The notes under the pieces: model-generated
Seen by the model: only the letters and a program-made list of their open reading frames with translations
Database searches by the model: none
Told to the model about the DNA's origin: nothing
Source: a virus
DNA: 10,874 nucleotides
Reading direction: 5' to 3' (one strand)
Virus genome (UHGV): UHGV-0126855
Shown here: positions 17-7,578 of the stretch, piece by piece
How positions within the stretch are numbered: position 1 is the first letter of the stretch
Layout: every line of letters starts with the position of its first letter
Made by a program: the position numbers and the translations under genes

Positions 17-457
17 GTGATAACAGATGTCTGGAAATATAGGGGCAAATCCAGGAACCCAGAAATACTTCCAGATCACTGGATGTATTACGCGATGCTT
101 TTGTGTATCAGTTATGTTCTGAACAGGGTGATGGAGTTTATATTTCTGGCATCTTCAGACAGATATAAAAAATATCTCAGTAAGAGAGATGAGGCTAAAG
201 TAATTGTGGAGACTGAGCGCCTGTTCAATTCTCTGAGTATTCAGGAAAAAGAGGTTTTAGCATTTGCTGTTATGGCAAATAACAAAATCGTACTTAAGCA
301 CGGCGATCCGGTCGCTTTATCTCTTATGAGAAAAGGCCTTCTCCATCGCTCAGGTGTGACTTACAGCGCGTCAGGTAAAGAGAAATTTGTTATACCTGAC
401 GTCTGGTTCCATGAGTGTTATATGCGCTTTGCTGGTAAAGCTGATGAGCTAATTTAG
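17..457 (+). CDS. Hypothetical protein (146 aa), convergent with the N-like gene; start codon uncertain
   Basis: Complete ORF in the six-frame track, followed by a hairpin and T-run at 464-507. It begins at GTG 17 without a convincing SD, and the next in-frame Met is at nt 83. No motif recognised. Confidence 0.45.
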   Translation: MITDVWKYRGKSRNPEILPDHWMYYAMLLCISYVLNRVMEFIFLASSDRYKKYLSKRDEAKVIVETERLFNSLSIQEKEVLAFAVMANNKIVLKHGDPVALSLMRKGLLHRSGVTYSASGKEKFVIPDVWFHECYMRFAGKADELI

Positions 458-463
458 TTCCTC

Positions 464-507
464 GACGGCGGGGGATCGTCATCTCGCCGTCAGTTGTTTT
501 GATTTCC
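464..507 (+). terminator. Putative intrinsic terminator after the 17..457 gene
   Basis: Inverted repeat gacggcgg (464-472) / ctcgccgtc (483-491) gives a ~9-bp stem with one G-T pair and a ~10-nt loop, followed by the T-rich agttgttttgatttcc. It overlaps the 3' end of the minus-strand N-like ORF. Confidence 0.4.
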
Positions 508-862
508 GGTATCCTGCTGCGTAAAGAGCTACATCTGGAAGACATACACCAGTTTCTGGTTGCTTATGTCCAAACTCATTCGCGTACACAATGGCCGCTC
601 TCTCCAGATTGCGTCTGTATTCTTTCTGTTGCCAGATCACGTCCTGTGCCATGAACTTAATTGGCTTAGCGTCTTCTATGCGCTCAGGCGTTTCGTGTTT
701 ACCTTTAGCCTGAATCTGTGCCCGACTGAGGGTAGGGCGATGAAGTTTCTCTGAACTGATAACCTCTTCACGAGCTTCAACACCATGTGCAATGGCTTGC
801 GCCTTTAAACGTTCACGGCGACGAGCTGCTGATGAACCTTTGAAAGCTGTTCTGCGTGTCAT
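479..862 (-). CDS. N-like transcription antiterminator (about 127 aa from ATG 862; the ORF track extends it to GTG 910)
   Basis: The N-terminus MTRRTAFKGSSAARRRERLKAQA is an arginine-rich motif resembling lambda N (…TRRRERRAEKQAQ…). SD AGGAGG (plus-strand cctcct 869-874) sits 6 nt upstream of ATG 862. The gene lies immediately downstream of pL, as N does in lambda. Confidence 0.6.
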   Translation of the reverse strand: MTRRTAFKGSSAARRRERLKAQAIAHGVEAREEVISSEKLHRPTLSRAQIQAKGKHETPERIEDAKPIKFMAQDVIWQQKEYRRNLERAAIVYANEFGHKQPETGVCLPDVALYAAGYRKSKQLTAR

Positions 863-977
863 GGTGACCTCCTGATGAACTTTGGTGATGTGGGCGGTAA
901 CCAGCCGCACAAGTCAGGGCCATCTTCACGTTTTACCCTTTCTCGCTTGCCACATCCCAAAGTTCACTTTGGTTATC

Positions 978-999
978 GCGCTTTGTCAGCGCCGTAGAT
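978..999 (-). promoter_or_regulatory. Candidate nutL (boxB-like hairpin)
   Basis: The minus-strand transcript reads CUACG-GCGCU-GACAA-AGCGC, a 5-bp stem with a 5-nt loop in the pL leader. The same CUACG-(N)CGCU-GACAA-AGCG(N) element recurs downstream of cro at 3651-3671. Confidence 0.45.
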
Positions 1000-1060
1000 T
1001 CATATTCGAATCGTTGTATATTCACCGCCCTGGTGAGTAGTGCGTCCTGCTGATGTGTTT

Positions 1061-1123
1061 AGTATCACCGCTAGTGGTATTTATGTCAACACCGCTAGAG
1101 ATAATTCATCACCGCAGATGGTT
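1061..1123 (-). promoter_or_regulatory. pL promoter with oL1-oL2-oL3 operators (lambda-type)
   Basis: The plus strand carries tatcaccgctagtggta (1063-1079), caacaccgctagagata (1087-1103) and catcaccgcagatggtt (1107-1123), each within about 1 nt of lambda OL1/OL2/OL3 as I recall them. On the minus strand this gives -35 TTGACA (1084-1089) and -10 GATACT (1061-1066), transcribing leftward into the N-like gene. Confidence 0.8.
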
Positions 1124-1270
1124 ATCTGTATGTTTTTTATATGAATTTATTTTTTGCAGGGGTGCATTGTTTGGTAGGTGAGAGATCTGAATTGCTATGT
1201 TTAGTGAGTTGTATCTATTAATTTTCAAATAAATACAATTGGTTATGTGTTTTTTTTGGGGGGGTTAGGC

Positions 1271-1300
1271 AAAGAAAACCCGGCGCTGAGGCCGGGTTCT
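1271..1300 (-). terminator. Intrinsic terminator after the ParA-like gene (possibly bidirectional)
   Basis: Stem cccggc (1279-1284) / gccggg (1291-1296) with loop gctgag. The minus-strand RNA follows it with UUUUCUUU and the plus strand with ttcttgctt. It lies 4 nt beyond the ORF stop at 1304. Confidence 0.6.
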
Positions 1301-1303
1301 TGC

Positions 1304-2347
1304 TTAAAGAATACTTGCCAGATACTTAAGTTGTCTTTGATATCGAGTAACCGACTGGTTAACTTGTAACCTTTTCCCTTCACTTACTGTATGGAAGCGA
1401 CCAACTTTTAGCTGTGATATTGGTATGCTTTCAGCCCCACTAATTTGCCCGCTTGATACAAAATCATCTGTAACCACAATTGCTTTGCTAACATCTTCAT
1501 CGGCAAAGAGATGACTGTATTTTTCAGCGATTTTTACAGCTCTCTCTATGTACATTTGAGATGCGCGACCTGGTGTTGATGATTTACGGCTTTTTGAACC
1601 AGCCATTGTCATTACGATCGCTGCTACTTTTGGAGCCCCAAGCCCACCCGCACGCTCATTCCATAATACAAAATCTTTTGATTTATTTGCCAGCATTTCC
1701 ATTGTGAGATGAAGTGACTCAATTGAGTGTTCATCTACGCGTACAGGGATAATCAATGCCTCAGACGCGCACCATGCTAGGTGTGTTCCTCCAGCATAGA
1801 AGGGGCTTGTATCCATCAATAAAATTTCGCATTTTTTGTCTTTCGCTTCATCGTTCATTATTGCGCGAAGAGAATTTAATAGTGTTGATACTGCTTTTGG
1901 TTCTCCGCGAGATAGCGCTACTTGTAGTTGTTGATACATGCTTGATGGGAAAGCGAATAGCTCAGGATCACCTGGAATCGCATAACATGCCTTACCACCT
2001 TTAAAATCTGGGCAGAAATTACTTACTCGATATGAAATATCTTCTGGCTGCTCACCAAAAGCTGGACCCAGCATTTTTGGTGTCAGTGCATTAGCTATTG
2101 TTACAACCGGTTTTTCACCACGCAATAGTGTCTCCGTTAAATTACATTGCGGGCATAAGTCAGCCACTAATACGGAGTTACGTCGTGACAGCTCATAGGC
2201 GAGGTTGAATGTCATCGTGGACTTACCAACACCACCGCGCAGATTGGAAACTGCATAACTTTTGAATTTTGGCCCGCCATCTACGACGTAACCTTCCTCA
2301 ACAACTTGTGCATAGCGTGCCATTACTGACTCAACTACAGTGCTCAT
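1304..2347 (-). CDS. ParA/MinD/Soj-family P-loop ATPase (347 aa) with a ~100-aa uncharacterised C-terminal extension; orphan, with no ParB partner
   Basis: Deviant Walker A RGGVGKST (aa 37-44), A' motif VLVADLCPQCNLT (aa 59-71) and Walker B-like EILLMDTSP (aa 174-182). Strong SD AAGGAGG (plus-strand cctcct 2355-2360) sits 7 nt from ATG. It has its own promoter region and is flanked by terminators. Confidence 0.8.
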   Translation of the reverse strand: MSTVVESVMARYAQVVEEGYVVDGGPKFKSYAVSNLRGGVGKSTMTFNLAYELSRRNSVLVADLCPQCNLTETLLRGEKPVVTIANALTPKMLGPAFGEQPEDISYRVSNFCPDFKGGKACYAIPGDPELFAFPSSMYQQLQVALSRGEPKAVSTLLNSLRAIMNDEAKDKKCEILLMDTSPFYAGGTHLAWCASEALIIPVRVDEHSIESLHLTMEMLANKSKDFVLWNERAGGLGAPKVAAIVMTMAGSKSRKSSTPGRASQMYIERAVKIAEKYSHLFADEDVSKAIVVTDDFVSSGQISGAESIPISQLKVGRFHTVSEGKRLQVNQSVTRYQRQLKYLASIL

Positions 2348-2371
2348 ATGAATTCCTCCTTTAAATTTTGA

Positions 2372-2402
2372 ATATTAAAGCACCACAATGATGCAGGAGC
2401 AA
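2372..2402 (-). promoter_or_regulatory. Putative sigma-70 promoter for the ParA-like gene
   Basis: Minus strand reads TTGCTC (-35; plus 2397-2402), a 17-nt spacer, then TTTAAT (-10; plus 2374-2379). The -35 overlaps the promoter-proximal copy of the 19-bp repeat. Confidence 0.4.
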
Positions 2403-2476
2403 TAAAAAAGTGCAGGAGAATGTAAAATTAGCAGGTGAATTAAAAATGCGCAGGAGATGTGATGTTTTGCAGGTTG
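2392..2476. repeat. Five direct repeats of GCAGG(A/T)(G/T) at exact 19-bp phasing
   Basis: Core starts at 2393, 2412, 2431, 2450 and 2469 (gcaggag, gcaggag, gcaggtg, gcaggag, gcaggtt), separated by AT-rich spacers, upstream of the ParA-like gene. Confidence 0.7.
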
Positions 2477-2570
2477 ACTGAACAAATGCTGATGTATACC
2501 TCGTTTGTAGATAGGTATGTTAATTGCTATATAACATGCTTATGTTATTGATATTTATATATATTAATCA

Positions 2571-2598
2571 TAAAAAAAGGCCGCACTTCTGTGCGACC
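2571..2598 (-). terminator. Intrinsic terminator immediately downstream of cI
   Basis: Minus-strand RNA GGUCGCAC-AGAA-GUGCGGCC has an 8-bp stem with one G-U pair, followed by U7 (plus-strand A-run 2572-2578). It separates cI from the ParA-like gene. Confidence 0.65.
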
Positions 2599-2603
2599 TT
2601 TCA

Positions 2604-3320
<717 letters not shown>

Positions 3321-3327
3321 TTAAATC

Positions 3328-3393
3328 TATCACCGCAAGGGATAAACTTCTAACACCGTGCGTGTTGACTATTTTACCTCTAGCGGTGATAAT
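3328..3393. promoter_or_regulatory. oR3-oR2-oR1 operators with divergent pRM and pR
   Basis: tatcaccgcaagggata (3328-3344), taacaccgtgcgtgttg (3351-3367) and tacctctagcggtgata (3375-3391) match lambda OR3/OR2/OR1 closely. pR has -35 ttgact (3365-3370) and -10 gataat (3388-3393). The cro SD is taaggagg, followed by ATG 3418. Confidence 0.9.
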
Positions 3394-3417
3394 GATTACC
3401 TGTACTAAGGAGGTTGT

Positions 3418-3618
3418 ATGGAACAACGCATAACCCTGAAAGATTATGCAATACGCTTTGGGCAAACCAAGACGGCTAAAGATCTCGGCGTATATCAAAG
3501 CGCGATTAACAAGGCCATTCATGCAGGCCGAAAGATTTTTTTAACTATAAACGCTGATGGAAGCGTTTATGCGGAAGAAATAAAGCCCTTCCCAAGTAAC
3601 AAAAAAACAGCTGCATAA
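3418..3618 (+). CDS. cro: Cro repressor (lambda-type, 66 aa)
   Basis: Translation [42 protein letters not shown]… is near-identical to lambda Cro from memory. Confidence 0.95.
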
Positions 3619-3625
3619 GTAACAC

Positions 3626-3671
3626 CGTTCTTTTCACAATGGACATTCGTCCTACGTCGCTGACAAAGCGA
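3626..3671 (+). promoter_or_regulatory. Candidate nutR (boxA-like plus boxB hairpin)
   Basis: cgttcttttcaca (3626-3638) resembles boxA (CGCTCTTACACA). The hairpin tcgct-gacaa-agcga (3657-3671) is preceded by ctacg, the same element found in the pL leader. Confidence 0.5.
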
Positions 3672-3755
3672 GCCCCAAGATATCTGACCAACTAAGGCCA
3701 TATGCGTTTCAACGCATACCTTTCAACTAACTATTCACTATTGGAAAATTAACAA

Positions 3756-4052
3756 ATGACACAAGCAAGTTACAGCAAGCCAACACAGCGAGAAATTGAT
3801 CGCGCAGAAACTGATTTACTCATCAACCTGTCAACGCTTACCCAGCGTGGTCTGGCAAAGATGATTGGCTGTCATGAATCGAAGATAAGCAGAACGGACT
3901 GGAGATTTATTGCTTCGGTCTTGTGTGCTTTCGGAATGGCATCAGACATCAGTCCGATTAGCAGGGCTTTTAAGTATGCGCTTGATGAAATCACAAAGAA
4001 AAAATCCCCGGCCGCCACCGAGGATTTTAAGCAAATTGATATGCAATTCTGA
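3756..4052 (+). CDS. cII: CII-like transcriptional activator (98 aa)
   Basis: It sits in the cII position after cro and nutR. The C-terminus [18 protein letters not shown] resembles lambda CII (…KKRPAATERSEQIQMEF); the N-terminal part is divergent. Confidence 0.7.
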
Positions 4053-4084
4053 GGTCATTACTGGATCAATCCACAGGAGTAATT

Positions 4085-4231
4085 ATGACAAAACAACTCA
4101 GTCCTTACCAGGACAAAATTCACAAACACATACTACGTGATCGCTTCCTGTCCAGCTTCAAGCAGCCTGGTCGATTCCGGGCTGAGTTGGAAAAAGTGAA
4201 GCTGATGCAGAAGGAGAAAGGTCATGAGTAA
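4085..4231 (+). CDS. Small hypothetical protein (48 aa) between cII and the O-like gene
   Basis: ATG 4085 is preceded by SD aggag (4075-4079). The [51 protein letters not shown] overlaps the O-like start by 8 nt. It is absent from the ORF track (presumably below its length cutoff). Confidence 0.4.
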
Positions 4232-5123
4232 CATATCTAATCTAGCCGAAGCCAGAGAGGCCAGAAGGCTACAACAACCGCATCAAAGCAGCGGTAAGGG
4301 GTATGCCTTGCTGCACCGTAAAATTATGGATGTGCCGTTTTACAAGGACGCAGAAGCAGCGCATCTGTGGGTTCACTTAATCCTCAAAGCAAAGCATACG
4401 CCTGAGTATGTAATGACTGACGCAGGAGAAATTCTGGTAGGCAGAGGGAAGCTACTTGGCGGTAGAAACTCTCTGGCGTTTGAAACAGGACTCAAACCAG
4501 ATCGCGTTCAGTACCTGCTTAGAAAGTTCAAAAAACTCGGCATGATTGACTGGGTTTCACACGGTAAATTCTCAGTTTTCTCGGTAGAGAAATATGACGA
4601 TTATCAGTCAAATTTTGTACCAGCAGATTACCAGCAAATTACCACCTCAAAGCCAGCAATACCAATGCCTGCAAGCAATACTGTACCAGCAGATTACCAG
4701 CAAATTACCACAGATAAAGAATATAATAATATTATCTCTAATACTGACGTATTAGAGAGTGCCACAGCAGACAAAAAGTCTGACAAGAAAAAACCTTCCG
4801 TCAGCTGTCAGGATGTTGTCGATGCTTACCACGAAATCCTTCCTGAAGCGCCAAGAATCCGCGCACTGAATGACAAGCGTAAAAACCAGATCCGAACGTT
4901 CTGGCGCAAAGCCGGAGTGATAACCCGCCAGCTTGACGGGCATGGGTTCACGATGCAGGACTGGAGAAATTATTTGAGCTACGTAGGCGAAAATTGCCGA
5001 TGGATGTTCGAAGAACGCCCAAACCATCAACGCGGAACCGTCTGGCACAAAAAGGGATTTGATTTCCTGCTTAACGACAATACCTACCTGAAAGTTCGTG
5101 AGGGTGAACACGATGACCGATAA
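4224..5123 (+). CDS. O-like replication initiator (299 aa) with the origin embedded in its coding sequence
   Basis: It occupies the O position upstream of the helicase. SD aaggag (4211-4216) precedes ATG 4224. Internal iteron DNA encodes the repeated peptide [10 protein letters not shown]. The stop overlaps the helicase start. Confidence 0.7.
4616..4745. repeat. Putative replication origin: iterons plus an AT-rich tract
   Basis: Identical 30-bp direct repeats tgtaccagcagattaccagcaaattaccac lie at 4616-4645 and 4682-4711. Each holds two ~13-bp sub-iterons CCAGCA(G/A)ATTACC, with a degenerate copy ccagcaatacc between them. The AT-rich agataaagaatataataatattatctctaatact follows. Confidence 0.6.
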
Positions 5124-7578
5124 TTTTTATGCGCCGCCCCATAGCATCGAGGCAGAGCAGGCGGTGATTGGTGGATTGCTTCTGGATGATGACAGCAGTG
5201 AGCGCGTCCAGAAAGTTCTGGCGATGCTGAAGCCTGATTCATTTTACAGCCGACCACACAAAATCCTTTTCGAAGAAATAACCAGAATGCACCGGGAGCA
5301 AAAGCCAGTAGATGGCCTGACGCTTTTCGATGAACTGGAGCGTAAATCGTTAACGGCGTCTGTTGGCGGTTTTGCTTATATCTCTGAGATCGCAAAGAAC
5401 ACGCCAAGCGCAGCAAACATCGTTGCCTATGCAATGCAGGTTCGTGAAACCGCAATGGAACGCTACGCCATCAACCGCATGACTGAAGCGACGGAATTGC
5501 TCTATTCCCGCAACGGAATGACTGCAACGCAGAAGTACGAAGCTATTCAGGCGATTTTCACGCAACTGACAGATCATGCAAAAACCGGATCGCGTCGCGG
5601 CCTTCGTTCATTTGGTGAGGTCATGGAAGACTGGGTTAGCGACCTTGAGAAGCGATTTGACCCGTCAGGCGAACAACGAGGAATGAGCACAGGGATCCCA
5701 TCGCTGGACAGGATGCTGTCACCGAAAGGTCTGGTGAAAGGCTCTCTGTTTGTCATTGGCGCTCGCCCTAAGATGGGGAAAGCGCAACCGCTTAATTCAC
5801 GCATTTTGCTTGCTGATGGTTCATGGACAACATTTCGTGACGTATGTGTTGGAGATTCCCTAGCATCAGTGGATGGACAACCATCATTCGTGTCTGGAGT
5901 TTTTCCTCAAGGGGAGCGAGATATTTACCGAGTTACGTTCTCTGACGGAAGAACCGTTGATTGCGCGGATGATCATTTGTGGGAAATTCATAGTAACCGT
6001 ATTACCGGTGGCGTTGATGTTGTAGACACCTGCCGCCTACGGGACATGATGGAATGCGTTCGCTATCAAAGCCGCATTCATGTTCCTGGTATTAGCGGTG
6101 ACTTCGGATTGCCTGTTGATTTAGGGATTAGCCCATGGCTGTTAGGTGCGTTACTTGGCGATGGAAATCTTGCAGGTACGCCACGAATCAGCATGACGGA
6201 ACCATACATCATTGAGCGAGTAAGATCTGAAGTGGGTGACGATATTGAAGTCAGACATGTTTCTGGCTGCGATTACTCCCTATCTCACAAGTTTAGCCGC
6301 AAATTATCTCTTACGCGGGTTATGCAACGGATTGGTATCTACGGCCGGATGTCAGAGATTAAAATTATCCCGGATATTATTTTTTCTGCTGATAAGCAAA
6401 CTCGTATTGATGTTCTATGCGGATTACTTGAAACCGATGGTTGGGTTGAAGGAAATAATGCCCTGCGCTTTAGCTCGGCAAGCAAGTTCCTGTCAGATGG
6501 TGTAAAGCGGCTGGTGCATTCTCTTGGTGGCGTGTGTCGTATGACAACCAAACAGGAGCCGAAATTCAGTTATAAGGGAGAAATGCGCAAAGGTATGGAT
6601 GCCCATATTTGCGCAATCAGGTTGCCTGATGAGGTTCTATCACACATAAAATCTCCACGCCTGAAGCAAAAATTCACTGCAAAACGCATCAAAACAAGTG
6701 CGCCTGTTATCACGTCGGTTGAGTATATTGGACGTGAAGAGTGCATTTGCATCATGGTATCCCACGAGAGACATTTGTATGCAACTGACGGATACATTCT
6801 AACCCACAACACCACGCTATACAGCCAGATGGCAATCAACTGCGCAGTGTATGAGAAAAAGCCCGCTCTGATATTCAGCCTTGAAATGCCAGGTGATCAG
6901 ATACTGGAAAAACTGGTAGGGCAGAAGTCTGGTGTTAACCCGAATATTTTTTACCTTCCGGCGACAAATGACGCCGATGACGGCTATCAGGGTGATTACG
7001 ATGGTGACTTCAACAGGGCGATCGAAACAGCCAATCGCTTGAGTGAAATCGACATGCTTTACATCGACGACACGCCGGGATTATCTCTGGCTCAAATCGT
7101 CAGCGAAAGCCGTCGAATCAAGCGAGAAAAAGGATGTGTTGGCATGATTCTGGTCGATTACCTGACACTAATGACCGCTGAGAAGGCCGATCGCAACGAC
7201 CTTGCTTACGGCATGATCACCAAAGGACTGAAGAACCTTGCCAAAGAGCTTGATTGCGTTGTTGTGCTTCTGACGCAGCTTAACCGCGCACTGGAAAGCC
7301 GAACCAATAAACGCCCATTACCAAGTGACTCGCGCGATACAGGGCAGATTGAACAGGATTGCGATTATTGGGTGGGGATCCATCGTGAAGGTGCTTTTGA
7401 TGACAGTGTTCCACCTGGTGAAACCGAACTAATCCTTCGTCTCAATCGTCATGGCAATACCGGCACGGTGTATTGCATTCAGGCAAATGGCGCTATTTAT
7501 GACACAGACCAACAGTCTGCTGAAATGCGCCGCCGTGAACGCGAGGAGCCGCAGTCCAAGAAGAAAGGAGGATTCTGA
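5113..7578 (+). CDS. DnaB-family replicative helicase, intein-containing (alternative start GTG 5098)
   Basis: N-terminus PPHSIEAEQAVIGGLLLD and the C-terminal half (KPALIFSLEMPGDQ…LTQLNRALESR…) align with E. coli DnaB from memory. The Walker A GARPKMGK|TT is split by a 343-aa insertion. Excluding the insert, the protein is about 470 aa. Confidence 0.9.
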   Translation: MTDNFYAPPHSIEAEQAVIGGLLLDDDSSERVQKVLAMLKPDSFYSRPHKILFEEITRMHREQKPVDGLTLFDELERKSLTASVGGFAYISEIAKNTPSAANIVAYAMQVRETAMERYAINRMTEATELLYSRNGMTATQKYEAIQAIFTQLTDHAKTGSRRGLRSFGEVMEDWVSDLEKRFDPSGEQRGMSTGIPSLDRMLSPKGLVKGSLFVIGARPKMGKAQPLNSRILLADGSWTTFRDVCVGDSLASVDGQPSFVSGVFPQGERDIYRVTFSDGRTVDCADDHLWEIHSNRITGGVDVVDTCRLRDMMECVRYQSRIHVPGISGDFGLPVDLGISPWLLGALLGDGNLAGTPRISMTEPYIIERVRSEVGDDIEVRHVSGCDYSLSHKFSRKLSLTRVMQRIGIYGRMSEIKIIPDIIFSADKQTRIDVLCGLLETDGWVEGNNALRFSSASKFLSDGVKRLVHSLGGVCRMTTKQEPKFSYKGEMRKGMDAHICAIRLPDEVLSHIKSPRLKQKFTAKRIKTSAPVITSVEYIGREECICIMVSHERHLYATDGYILTHNTTLYSQMAINCAVYEKKPALIFSLEMPGDQILEKLVGQKSGVNPNIFYLPATNDADDGYQGDYDGDFNRAIETANRLSEIDMLYIDDTPGLSLAQIVSESRRIKREKGCVGMILVDYLTLMTAEKADRNDLAYGMITKGLKNLAKELDCVVVLLTQLNRALESRTNKRPLPSDSRDTGQIEQDCDYWVGIHREGAFDDSVPPGETELILRLNRHGNTGTVYCIQANGAIYDTDQQSAEMRRREREEPQSKKKGGF
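5782..6810 (+). other. Intein (~343 aa) with a LAGLIDADG homing endonuclease domain, inserted in the helicase P-loop
   Basis: The insert lies between GARPKMGK and TT(LYSQMAINCAV). It ends in THN followed by Thr +1 (nt 6802-6813). Two LAGLIDADG-type motifs are present: LLGALLGDGNL (aa 348-358) and LCGLLETDGWV (aa 440-450). The N-terminal boundary at Ala229 is inferred to within a few residues. Confidence 0.75.

What the first reader, a model, noticed from the sequence alone, without database searches (positions are those of the whole stretch)
3626..3671. Candidate nutR: boxA-like element plus a GACAA-loop boxB hairpin, duplicated in the pL leader
Downstream of cro, cgttcttttcaca (boxA-like) is followed by ctacg-tcgct-gacaa-agcga. 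Nearly the same ctacg-(N)cgct-gacaa-agcg(N) hairpin occurs in the pL leader at 978-999. Two matching 5-bp-stem, 5-nt-loop hairpins in the two early leaders is what paired nut sites look like. The loop GACAA differs from lambda's GAAGA/GAAAA, which fits the non-lambda arginine-rich motif of the N-like protein.
Basis: partly seen in the sequence, partly recalled or inferred. Interest (0 to 1): 0.45.

Follow-up and report, generated by a model that had tools for sequence, protein, structure and literature searches.

The report
Known H-19B/P22-type nut sites

Summary

- **What is there.** UCGCU-GACAA-AGCGA (3657-3671, + strand) lies downstream of pR and cro. GCGCU-GACAA-AGCGC (992-978, - strand) lies downstream of pL and upstream of an N gene (862-479).
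- **Not chance.** The shared 19-nt motif CTACGNCGCTGACAAAGCG occurs exactly twice, once in each early leader, against 0 in 200 shuffles.
- **Identity with known sites.** From the spacer hairpin through boxB, nutR is identical to the experimentally used H-19B nutR. GenBank records for mEp234, HK106 and 933W annotate the same sequences as nut sites. The nutL boxB is base-for-base the 15-mer RNA solved with the P22 N peptide (PDB 1A4T).
- **Comparative support.** In about 320 related loci the boxB loop tracks the N arginine-rich motif (ARM). H-19B and P22 types have GACAA; lambda-like ARM types have GAAA. The stem shows compensatory changes (96.9% of cells paired; 3 of 5 pairs change on both sides).
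Each site has a conserved spacer hairpin just 5' of boxB. The GACAA loop is not unusual. The boxA match is partial in nutR, and no boxA lies at the canonical position in nutL.
- **Likely mechanism.** The N ARM binds boxB on the nascent RNA and, with NusA and NusG, makes RNA polymerase resistant to tR1 and later terminators.

The parts
3365..3393 (+). pR promoter (TTGACT-17-GATAAT)
   Evidence: Consensus scan, 10 of 12 matches. Homologous to the annotated pR of mEp234 and lambda.
3418..3618 (+). cro (lambda-type)
   Evidence: Pfam Cro PF09048, E = 7.9e-34.
3626..3638 (+). nutR boxA-like element CGUUCUUUUCACA (partial match)
   Evidence: Aligns with lambda's boxA CGCUCUUA. mEp234 annotators call CGCTCTTTT here 'putative nutR boxA'. 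Variable in relatives: CGCUAUUUU, CGCUCUUUU, CCACUUCC.
3641..3652 (+). nutR spacer hairpin GGAC-AUUC-GUCC
   Evidence: Part of the MFE fold. Conserved in all nutR sites surveyed, with a free loop and only a G.U variant in the stem. The H-19B nutR is reported to have two hairpins, with the spacer protected by NusA and Rho.
3652..3656 (+). conserved CUACG linker immediately 5' of boxB
   Evidence: Invariant in nutL and nutR of the H-19B, eps34 and Nil2 classes.
3657..3671 (+). nutR boxB UCGCU-GACAA-AGCGA
   Evidence: Identical to H-19B, 933W and mEp234. Annotated as boxB in EF120460. Stem covariation.
3701..3718 (+). hairpin UAUGCGU-UUCA-ACGCAUA in the tR1 region between nutR and cII
   Evidence: The homologous hairpin is annotated as putative tR1 in epsilon34. 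H-19B nutR/tR1 is a Rho-dependent terminator that overlaps the nut site.
3756..4052 (+). cII, the first gene that needs read-through of tR1
   Evidence: Pfam Phage_CII, E = 4.1e-33.
1061..1089 (-). pL promoter (TTGACA-17-GATACT)
   Evidence: Consensus scan, 10 of 12 matches. Near-identical to lambda pL/oL.
1022..1036 (-). pL leader hairpin UCACC-AGGGC-GGUGA, shared with lambda
997..1012 (-). nutL spacer hairpin GAUUC-GAAUAU-GAAUC
   Evidence: The stem is kept while the loop varies freely in relatives. The Nil2 class has a different stem, GUCGA/UCGAC, at the same place.
978..992 (-). nutL boxB GCGCU-GACAA-AGCGC
   Evidence: Identical to H-19B nutL and to the P22 boxB 15-mer of PDB 1A4T. Annotated as boxB in EF120460.
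875..967 (-). long N-leader stem that brings nutL next to the N ribosome-binding site
   Evidence: Fold of 1054-855 (-): -67.3 kcal/mol, z = -4.0, 0 of 200 shuffles. Lambda has the analogous complementary arms.
479..862 (-). N antiterminator (127 aa), ARM MTRRTAFKGSSAARRRERLKAQAIAHG
   Evidence: Pfam N_peptide. 89% identical to H-19B N. At most 90.6% identical to any deposited phage N. R3, S11, R15 and R18, whose mutation abolishes H-19B N function, are conserved.

Best explanation
These are the nutL and nutR sites of an H-19B/HK97-type N antitermination module carried by a lambda-immunity E. coli prophage.

Proposed mechanism:
1. RNA polymerase starting at pL or pR transcribes the site, and the nascent RNA folds into a small spacer hairpin followed by the boxB hairpin (5-bp stem, GACAA loop).
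2. The N-terminal arginine-rich motif of the phage N protein binds boxB, while NusA contacts the spacer.
3. The N-NusA(-NusG) complex stays tethered by the RNA loop to the elongating polymerase.
4. The polymerase becomes resistant to Rho at tR1, immediately downstream of nutR, and to later terminators. This switches on cII-O-P-Q rightward and the recombination and cIII genes leftward.

What is shown here:
- the sequence, position and orientation of both sites;
- identity to characterised sites;
- structural covariation of the stem;
- co-variation of the loop with the ARM class.

What is inferred from H-19B, P22 and lambda work:
- binding of N to boxB and read-through of terminators;
- the role of the degenerate boxA-like element, which is uncertain and probably minor.
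For: - **Position and orientation.** Both hairpins lie in the sense strand of the two early leaders, downstream of pL and pR.
- **Cognate protein.** An N_peptide-family protein with an ARM is encoded 116 nt downstream of nutL boxB.
- **Identity to characterised sites.** From the spacer hairpin through boxB, nutR is 100% identical to H-19B and 933W. nutL is identical to H-19B from the leader through boxB.
- **Experimental support in H-19B.** H-19B nutR supports N-dependent read-through of tR1 and other terminators in vivo and in vitro. N plus NusA and NusG protect its spacer and boxB. ARM mutants R3H, S11F, R15C/P and R18P are defective, and those four residues are conserved in the window's N.
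- **Structural precedent.** nutL boxB equals the 15-mer RNA in the P22 N-peptide complex, PDB 1A4T.
- **Prior annotation.** GenBank annotators marked the same sequences as nut sites.
- **Survey of about 320 loci.** ARM class predicts the boxB loop at both sites without exception.
- **Covariation.** The stem has four pair types at the basal pair, 96.9% of cells paired, and 0 of 500 shuffles reach the covariation score; slid controls collapse.
- **RNA, not DNA.** G.U variants occur in both boxB and the spacer stems.
- **Mosaic joints.** Compared with lambda, the junctions fall exactly where lambda's own boxA-boxB lie.
Against: - No experiment was done on this particular sequence.
- The window's N differs from H-19B N at 8 ARM-region positions (Q6A, N10S, R12A, S13A, K22Q, L24I, N26H, L29E) and loses two basic residues, so its affinity is untested.
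- boxA is degenerate in nutR (CGUUCUUU against CGCUCUUA/U). It is absent from the canonical position in nutL, where the mEp234 annotators' 'boxA' CGCACUACU lies upstream of the leader hairpin and is homologous to non-boxA lambda leader sequence.
- Rfam has no nut model, so no independent covariance-model hit exists.
- The PDB sequence search found no relative of this N.
Confidence: 0.93

Rival explanations
1. The inverted repeats act at the DNA level, as binding sites for a repressor, Cro-like or other dimeric DNA-binding protein, rather than as RNA hairpins.
For: They are short perfect inverted repeats near the immunity region.
Against: - The asymmetric loop always reads GACAA (or GAAA) in the sense of the early transcript, on opposite DNA strands for the left and right sites, in about 320 loci.
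- Stem changes are compensatory and include G.U wobbles, which pair only in RNA.
- The true operators (oL, oR) lie elsewhere and are lambda-like.
Confidence: 0.01
2. The hairpins are terminator or attenuator structures, or only part of the Rho-loading (rut) region of tR1, with no role in N recruitment.
For: In H-19B the nutR region overlaps the Rho-binding site of tR1, and Rho alone protects the spacer.
Against: - No U-tract follows either hairpin, and the terminator scan does not flag them.
- The same hairpin occurs in the pL leader, 116 nt upstream of the N start codon.
- The boxB loop co-varies with the N ARM, which a pure rut or terminator role does not predict.
- N plus NusA and NusG protect boxB in H-19B.
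- Overlap with rut is better seen as an additional function than as an alternative.
Confidence: 0.04
3. The site is a nut site, but it works in a fully lambda-like way: the boxA-like element recruits NusB and NusE (S10) and is essential.
For: CGUUCUUU sits at the position homologous to lambda boxA. Nil2-class relatives have a good boxA, GCUCUUUAAACAA or CGCUCUUUGUAACAA.
Against: - The boxA region is the least conserved part of these nut sites: CGCUAUUUU, CGUUCUUUU, CCACUUCC, CCACUCAC.
- nutL of this class has none at the canonical place.
- H-19B N works in vitro with NusA and NusG only.
[quoted passage not shown] From my own memory of its abstract, BOXA, NusB and S10 are dispensable for H-19B N. 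The paper was not held.
Confidence: 0.15

Closest known systems
nutR and nutL of Shiga-toxin phage H-19B (also 933W, HK97, mEp234, HK106)
   Same: - nutR from the spacer hairpin through boxB is 100% identical, and nutL from the leader through boxB is identical.
- Same layout: degenerate boxA, spacer stem-loop, CUACG, boxB.
- Same N family, 89% identity.
- Same tR1-region hairpin downstream.
   Different: - Two substitutions in boxA relative to H-19B (CGUUCUUUU against CGCUAUUUU).
- One nucleotide differs just after each boxB.
- The N ARM region carries 8 substitutions. This variant was seen in only one other locus (L010) among about 114 loci of this class.
- The immunity module is lambda-type, as in HK97 and mEp234, not H-19B-type.
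Phage P22 boxB / gene 24 (N) peptide complex, PDB 1A4T
   Same: - nutL boxB GCGCUGACAAAGCGC is identical to the 15-mer in the solved complex.
- P22-like phages carry (U)GCGCU-GACAA-AGCGC(G) upstream of gene 24.
- The C-terminal about 20 residues of N are shared.
   Different: - The ARM sequence differs: NAKTRRHERRRKLAIER against SSAARRRERLKAQAIAH.
- P22-type nut sites have a good boxA (GCUCUUUAAC) and no spacer hairpin.
- P22-type nutR boxB is CCGCc-GACAA-cGCGG.
Phage lambda nutL and nutR
   Same: Same genomic positions, the same pL/pR leaders up to the nut site, and the same logic of boxA, spacer, then a 5-bp boxB stem with a G...A purine-rich loop.
   Different: - Lambda boxB is GCCCU-GAAGA/GAAAA-AGGGC.
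- Lambda has no spacer hairpin.
- Lambda N is only 27% identical in the alignment and has a different C-terminus.

Membership tests
Lambdoid N-utilisation (nut) site | Lies in the sense strand of both early transcripts: downstream of pL before N, and downstream of pR/cro before the first terminator. | tested here: met
   pL 1089-1061 (-) then boxB 992-978 then N 862-479. pR 3365-3393 then cro then boxB 3657-3671 then tR1-region hairpin then cII.
Lambdoid N-utilisation (nut) site | boxB: a short G+C-rich stem with a purine-rich 4-5 nt loop starting with G and ending with A. | tested here: met
   5-bp stems with a GACAA loop, and the MFE structure in both cases. Stem covariation in relatives.
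Lambdoid N-utilisation (nut) site | boxA (CGCUCUUA / GCUCUUUAACAA) a few nucleotides 5' of boxB. | tested here: inconclusive
   nutR has CGUUCUUUUCACAA at the position homologous to lambda boxA, with one mismatch in the first 7 nt. nutL has nothing boxA-like between the leader hairpin and the spacer hairpin. The region is poorly conserved in the family.
Lambdoid N-utilisation (nut) site | [quoted passage not shown] | tested here: met
   PF25694 N_peptide, 56.6 bits against a cutoff of 27.9. ARM RRRERLK, with the functionally required R3, S11, R15 and R18 conserved.
Lambdoid N-utilisation (nut) site | N-dependent read-through of downstream terminators. | not testable with these tools
   Shown experimentally for the H-19B nutR, whose spacer and boxB are identical.
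P22/H-19B-class boxB (GACAA pentaloop) | Hairpin sequence NCGCU-GACAA-AGCGN, matching the RNA bound by the P22 N peptide. | tested here: met
   nutL matches the 1A4T RNA at 15 of 15 positions. nutR differs only by a compensated basal pair, U-A in place of G-C.
P22/H-19B-class boxB (GACAA pentaloop) | The loop type co-occurs with the matching ARM class at both nut sites of a phage. | tested here: met
   The H-19B class (about 114 loci including the window type) and the P22 class (80 loci) have GACAA. The eps34 (41 loci) and Nil2 (80 loci) classes with lambda-like ARMs have GAAA. There are no exceptions once longer leaders are allowed for.
P22/H-19B-class boxB (GACAA pentaloop) | GNRA-like loop fold with one extruded base when bound by the ARM helix. 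| not testable with these tools
   Known only from the NMR structure of the identical RNA with the P22 peptide. The window's ARM differs.
H-19B-type nut site with spacer stem-loop | Dyad symmetry (a small stem-loop) in the spacer between boxA and boxB, in both nutL and nutR. | tested here: met
   GGAC-AUUC-GUCC (3641-3652) and GAUUC-GAAUAU-GAAUC (1012-997). In relatives the stems are kept or change only to G.U, the loops vary freely, and the Nil2 class has a different stem, GUCGA/UCGAC. Two hairpins are reported for H-19B nutR.

The most novel reading that the evidence does not exclude
Within this one N family, the boxB loop may act as a one-nucleotide specificity switch. nutR of H-19B-type phages (including this window) and nutR of Nil2/epsilon34-type phages are otherwise nearly identical, but they carry GACAA and a true 4-nt GAAA tetraloop respectively, each strictly paired with its own ARM class. 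If the two classes do not cross-react, co-resident lambdoid or Stx prophages in one E. coli cell would have mutually insulated early antitermination. The window's rarer ARM variant, with two fewer basic residues, would then show how far the ARM can drift on a fixed GACAA boxB.
Probability: 0.4. Interest if true: 0.3.

Novelty: already known. Interest (0 to 1): 0.1.

Why it matters
It matters little beyond correct annotation. The result places the early-gene switch of this prophage in the H-19B/933W/HK97 N-nut class, the class used by many Shiga-toxin phages, where N-dependent read-through ultimately controls late genes and toxin expression.

The comparative table built here (ARM class against boxB loop at both nut sites, about 320 loci) is a tidy natural-variation data set for ARM-RNA recognition. 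It extends known principles rather than overturning any.

Tried and rejected
- **Rfam.** A scan of the whole window at E up to 1 gave no hit. There is no curated nut or boxB family, so this says nothing either way.
- **PDB.** A sequence search with N gave only chance matches; the ARM peptides are too short or divergent.
- **Primary paper.** Neely and Friedman 2000 on H-19B NUT structures is not held. What I say about BOXA, NusB and S10 independence rests on its title as cited, on in vitro systems that use only NusA and NusG, and on my memory of the abstract.
- **Literature search.** The search with 'reducer' and 'dyad symmetry' returned only irrelevant nutrition papers.
- **Spacer alignment.** MAFFT did not put the spacer hairpins of the three stem types in register, so I did not run a formal pair count on the spacer helix. 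I judged it by inspecting the unique sequences.
- **Long-range pairing.** The 141-nt fold predicts pairing between the boxA region (3627-3640) and the region just upstream of the cII start (about 3735-3752). I did not pursue it, because the boxA-side sequence is not conserved in Nil2-class nutR sites that keep the same downstream sequence.
- **Apparent exceptions.** N genes without an upstream boxB within 260 nt turned out to have longer leaders, with boxB at -281 to -369.
- **False positive.** One CTACG...GACAA match inside a coding region was discarded.
- **Coordinate correction.** My first notebook entry gave nutL boxB as 977-991. The correct coordinates are 978-992.

Full report
**1. The observation**

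The window is the early regulatory region of a lambdoid prophage:

| Coordinates | Strand | Feature |
|---|---|---|
| 17-457 | + | sieB-like gene |
| 862-479 | - | N-family gene, Pfam N_peptide |
| 1089-1061 | - | pL |
| 2347-1304 | - | ParA-like gene |
| 3317-2604 | - | lambda-type cI |
| 3365-3393 | + | pR |
| 3418-3618 | + | lambda-type cro |
| 3756-4052 | + | cII |
| 4224 onward | + | O-like and DnaB-like replication genes |

An almost identical arrangement (99.5% identity over 98% of the query, window 400-4100) is present in an E. coli chromosome, NZ_LR883012.1.

- nutR side: CGTTCTTTTCACA at 3626-3638, CTACG at 3652-3656, TCGCT-GACAA-AGCGA at 3657-3671.
- nutL side, minus strand: CTACG at 997-993, GCGCT-GACAA-AGCGC at 992-978.

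Both hairpins are the minimum-energy folds of the local RNA.

The shared 19-mer CTACGNCGCTGACAAAGCG occurs exactly twice, once on each strand, and never in 200 shuffles. A GACAA hairpin with a stem of at least 5 bp is expected 0.21 times per window. Two or more arise in 1.8% of simulated windows, and there is no third one here.

Each copy reads GACAA in the sense of the transcript from the nearest early promoter.

**2. What it is**

*Identity to known sites.* The cro-cII spacer matches about 150 deposited phages, including HK97, mEp234, HK106, H-19B, 933W and many Stx-converting phages. The pL leader matches 89.

From the spacer hairpin through boxB, nutR is identical to H-19B, 933W and mEp234. 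The differences fall in the boxA-like element, where the window has CGTTCTTTT, mEp234 has CGCTCTTTT, and H-19B and 933W have CGCTATTTT. nutL is identical to H-19B from the transcript start through boxB.

The depositors of mEp234 and HK106 annotated exactly these hairpins as 'putative nutR/nutL boxB'. The 933W record annotates the region as nutR.

*Experimental work on H-19B.* H-19B nutR/tR1 is a standard system for N-dependent antitermination.
- It supports N-dependent read-through in vivo and in vitro.
- Its RNA is described as having two hairpins, spacer and boxB.
- N plus NusA and NusG protect the spacer and boxB.
- ARM mutants R3H, S11F, R15C/P and R18P lose antitermination at nutR/tR1.

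All four of those residues are present in the window's N.

*Link to P22.* The nutL boxB, GCGCUGACAAAGCGC, is the same 15-mer whose complex with the P22 N peptide was solved (PDB 1A4T), as quoted in PMC11480772.

**3. Comparative test**

I collected about 320 loci encoding N relatives. They came from IMG/VR and GenBank, using the window's N, epsilon34 N, PhiR11_1 N and a P22-type gene 24 as queries. The loop type at both nut sites follows the ARM class without exception:

| ARM class | Loci | nutL boxB | nutR boxB |
|---|---|---|---|
| H-19B type, RRRERLKAKALANG (includes the window's variant) | about 114 | GCGCU-GACAA-AGCGC | UCGCU-GACAA-AGCGA |
| SPN9CC subtype | 7 | GCUCc-GUCAA-cGAGC | UCGCU-GACAA-GGCGA |
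| epsilon34 type, RRRERRAALQ | 41 | (C/A)GGCU-GAAA-AGCC(G/U) | UCGCU-GAAA-AGCGA |
| Nil2/PhiR11_1 type, RRRARRANLQ | 80 | UGGCU-GAAA-AGCCA | UCGCU-GAAA-AGCGA |
| P22 type, NAKTRRHERRRKLA | 80 | (U)GCGCU-GACAA-AGCGC(G) | CCGCc-GACAA-cGCGG |

The few apparent exceptions simply have longer leaders.

On the 14 distinct boxB sequences:
- 96.9% of cells form standard pairs.
- 3 of 5 pairs change on both sides; the basal pair is U-A, G-C, C-G or A-U.
- 0 of 500 shuffles reach the observed covariation score.
- Sliding the partner by 1-3 columns collapses pairing to 25-43%.

G.U variants occur in boxB (U.G in SPN9CC nutR and in L287 nutL), and they pair only in RNA.

The spacer hairpin is likewise maintained:
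- GGAC/GUCC, with a GGGC/GUCC variant.
- GAUUC/GAAUC, with a GAGUC variant.
- A different stem, GUCGA/UCGAC, in Nil2-class nutL.
- Freely varying loops throughout.

I judged this by inspection, because MAFFT did not align the three stem types in register.

**4. Relation to lambda**

Aligned with lambda itself, the window shares lambda's pL/oL and the first ~38 nt of the leader, including the leader hairpin. It diverges exactly where lambda has boxA-spacer-boxB.

On the right it shares lambda's cro and the first bases of boxA (CCGCTCT in lambda, CCGTTCT here) and then diverges. The nut elements therefore travel functionally with N rather than with the immunity module that separates them. HK97 and mEp234 show the same arrangement.

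This alignment also shows that nutL of this class has nothing boxA-like at the canonical place. The 'boxA' that the mEp234 annotators chose (CGCACUACU, window 1044-1036) is homologous to ordinary lambda leader sequence upstream of the leader hairpin. In nutR the boxA-like element is at the right place but is the least conserved part of the site across the family.

**5. Mechanism**

Established for the H-19B, P22 and lambda relatives, and inferred for this copy:
1. The nascent pL and pR transcripts fold into the spacer hairpin and boxB.
2. The N ARM binds boxB and NusA binds the spacer.
3. The complex, with NusG, modifies the elongating polymerase.
4. The polymerase reads through the Rho-dependent tR1 that overlaps and follows nutR, and through later terminators.

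The hairpin at 3701-3718 lies in the tR1 region, and its homologue is annotated as putative tR1 in epsilon34.

A requirement for boxA, NusB and NusE is doubtful. H-19B N works in vitro with NusA and NusG only. [quoted passage not shown] That paper was not available to me.

**6. Rivals**

- *DNA-level operator sites.* Excluded by transcript-sense asymmetry of the loop, compensatory and wobble changes, and the presence of the true lambda-like operators elsewhere.
- *Intrinsic terminators.* Excluded by the lack of U-tracts and by the terminator scan.
- *A pure rut role.* This does not explain the left copy or the co-variation with the ARM. Overlap with rut is a known additional property of H-19B nutR.

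**7. Novelty and verdict**

This is an already known kind of element in an already known sequence form, so interest is low.

The only particular features of this copy are a C-to-U change in the boxA-like element and a rarer N ARM variant (Q6A, N10S, R12A, S13A, K22Q, L24I, N26H, L29E relative to H-19B). That variant has at most 90.6% identity to any deposited phage N and is shared with one IMG/VR locus, L010.

The most novel reading left open is that GACAA against GAAA on an otherwise near-identical nutR is a one-nucleotide specificity switch that insulates co-resident prophages. The strict co-variation is compatible with this, but I did not test it.

Noticed in passing
window 875-967 (- strand), within the N leader 1054-855: After boxB the pL leader folds into a long irregular stem: GAACUUUGGGAUGUGG pairs with CCACAUCACCAAAGUUC, ending about 2 nt 5' of the N Shine-Dalgarno. 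The fold is -67.3 kcal/mol, z = -4.0, 0 of 200 shuffles. Lambda has analogous complementary arms. In lambda this is the RNase III-sensitive stem involved in N translational control (my own knowledge).
   Followed up: partly
L007, L009 and about 120 other loci (eps34 and Nil2/PhiR11_1 classes); compare window 3657-3671: N relatives with lambda-like ARMs (RRRERRAALQ, RRRARRANLQ) use a boxB with a true 4-nt GAAA loop. Their nutR differs from the H-19B-type nutR essentially by deletion of the single C of GACAA. The co-variation of ARM and loop is strict at both nut sites.
   Followed up: partly
L006 and 6 related loci (SPN9CC subclass): These phages have an H-19B-like ARM but a nutL boxB (GCUCc-GUCAA-cGAGC, with a C.C flanking the loop as in P22-type nutR) that differs from their own nutR (UCGCU-GACAA-GGCGA). 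One N apparently serves two rather different hairpins.
   Followed up: no
window 1304-2347 (- strand) and upstream 2348-2480: A 347-aa ParA/MinD-like P-loop ATPase (Pfam AAA_31, CbiA) sits between cI and pL, where lambda has rexA and rexB. PADLOC gave only a marginal, partial hit (PDC-M28B, E = 0.0011, 16 bits, residues 29-64). Its upstream region carries GCAGGAG three times, plus GCAGGTG and GCAGGTT variants, at about 19-nt spacing, which could be a regulator-binding array. The same gene is annotated 'ParA family protein' in a few E. coli prophages.
   Followed up: partly
window 5098-7578 (+ strand): The DnaB-type replicative helicase is interrupted inside its Walker A motif (GARPKMGK|AQPL...LTHN|TT) by an intein of about 340 aa with a LAGLIDADG homing-endonuclease domain. 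The intein starts with Ala rather than Cys and has HLW, ECICI and THN motifs. This suggests a class 3 (Trp-Cys-Thr) intein (my own knowledge; not tested).
   Followed up: no
window 4600-4720 (+ strand), inside the O-like gene 4224-5123: The direct repeat GTACCAGCAGATTACCAGCAAATTACCAC occurs twice, encoding [10 protein letters not shown] twice. It looks like origin iterons inside the O-like gene, as in lambdoid ori.
   Followed up: no
window 3627-3640 with about 3735-3752 (+ strand): The 141-nt fold pairs the boxA-like U-rich segment with the region just upstream of the cII start codon (z = -2.7). The boxA-side sequence is not conserved in Nil2-class relatives, so this may be fortuitous.
   Followed up: partly
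window 1036-1044 (- strand); EF120460 nutL 'boxA' annotation: The GenBank 'putative nutL boxA' of mEp234 and HK106 (CGCACUACU) aligns with ordinary lambda pL-leader sequence (CGCACUGAC) upstream of the leader hairpin, not with lambda's boxA. The annotation is probably wrong.
   Followed up: partly
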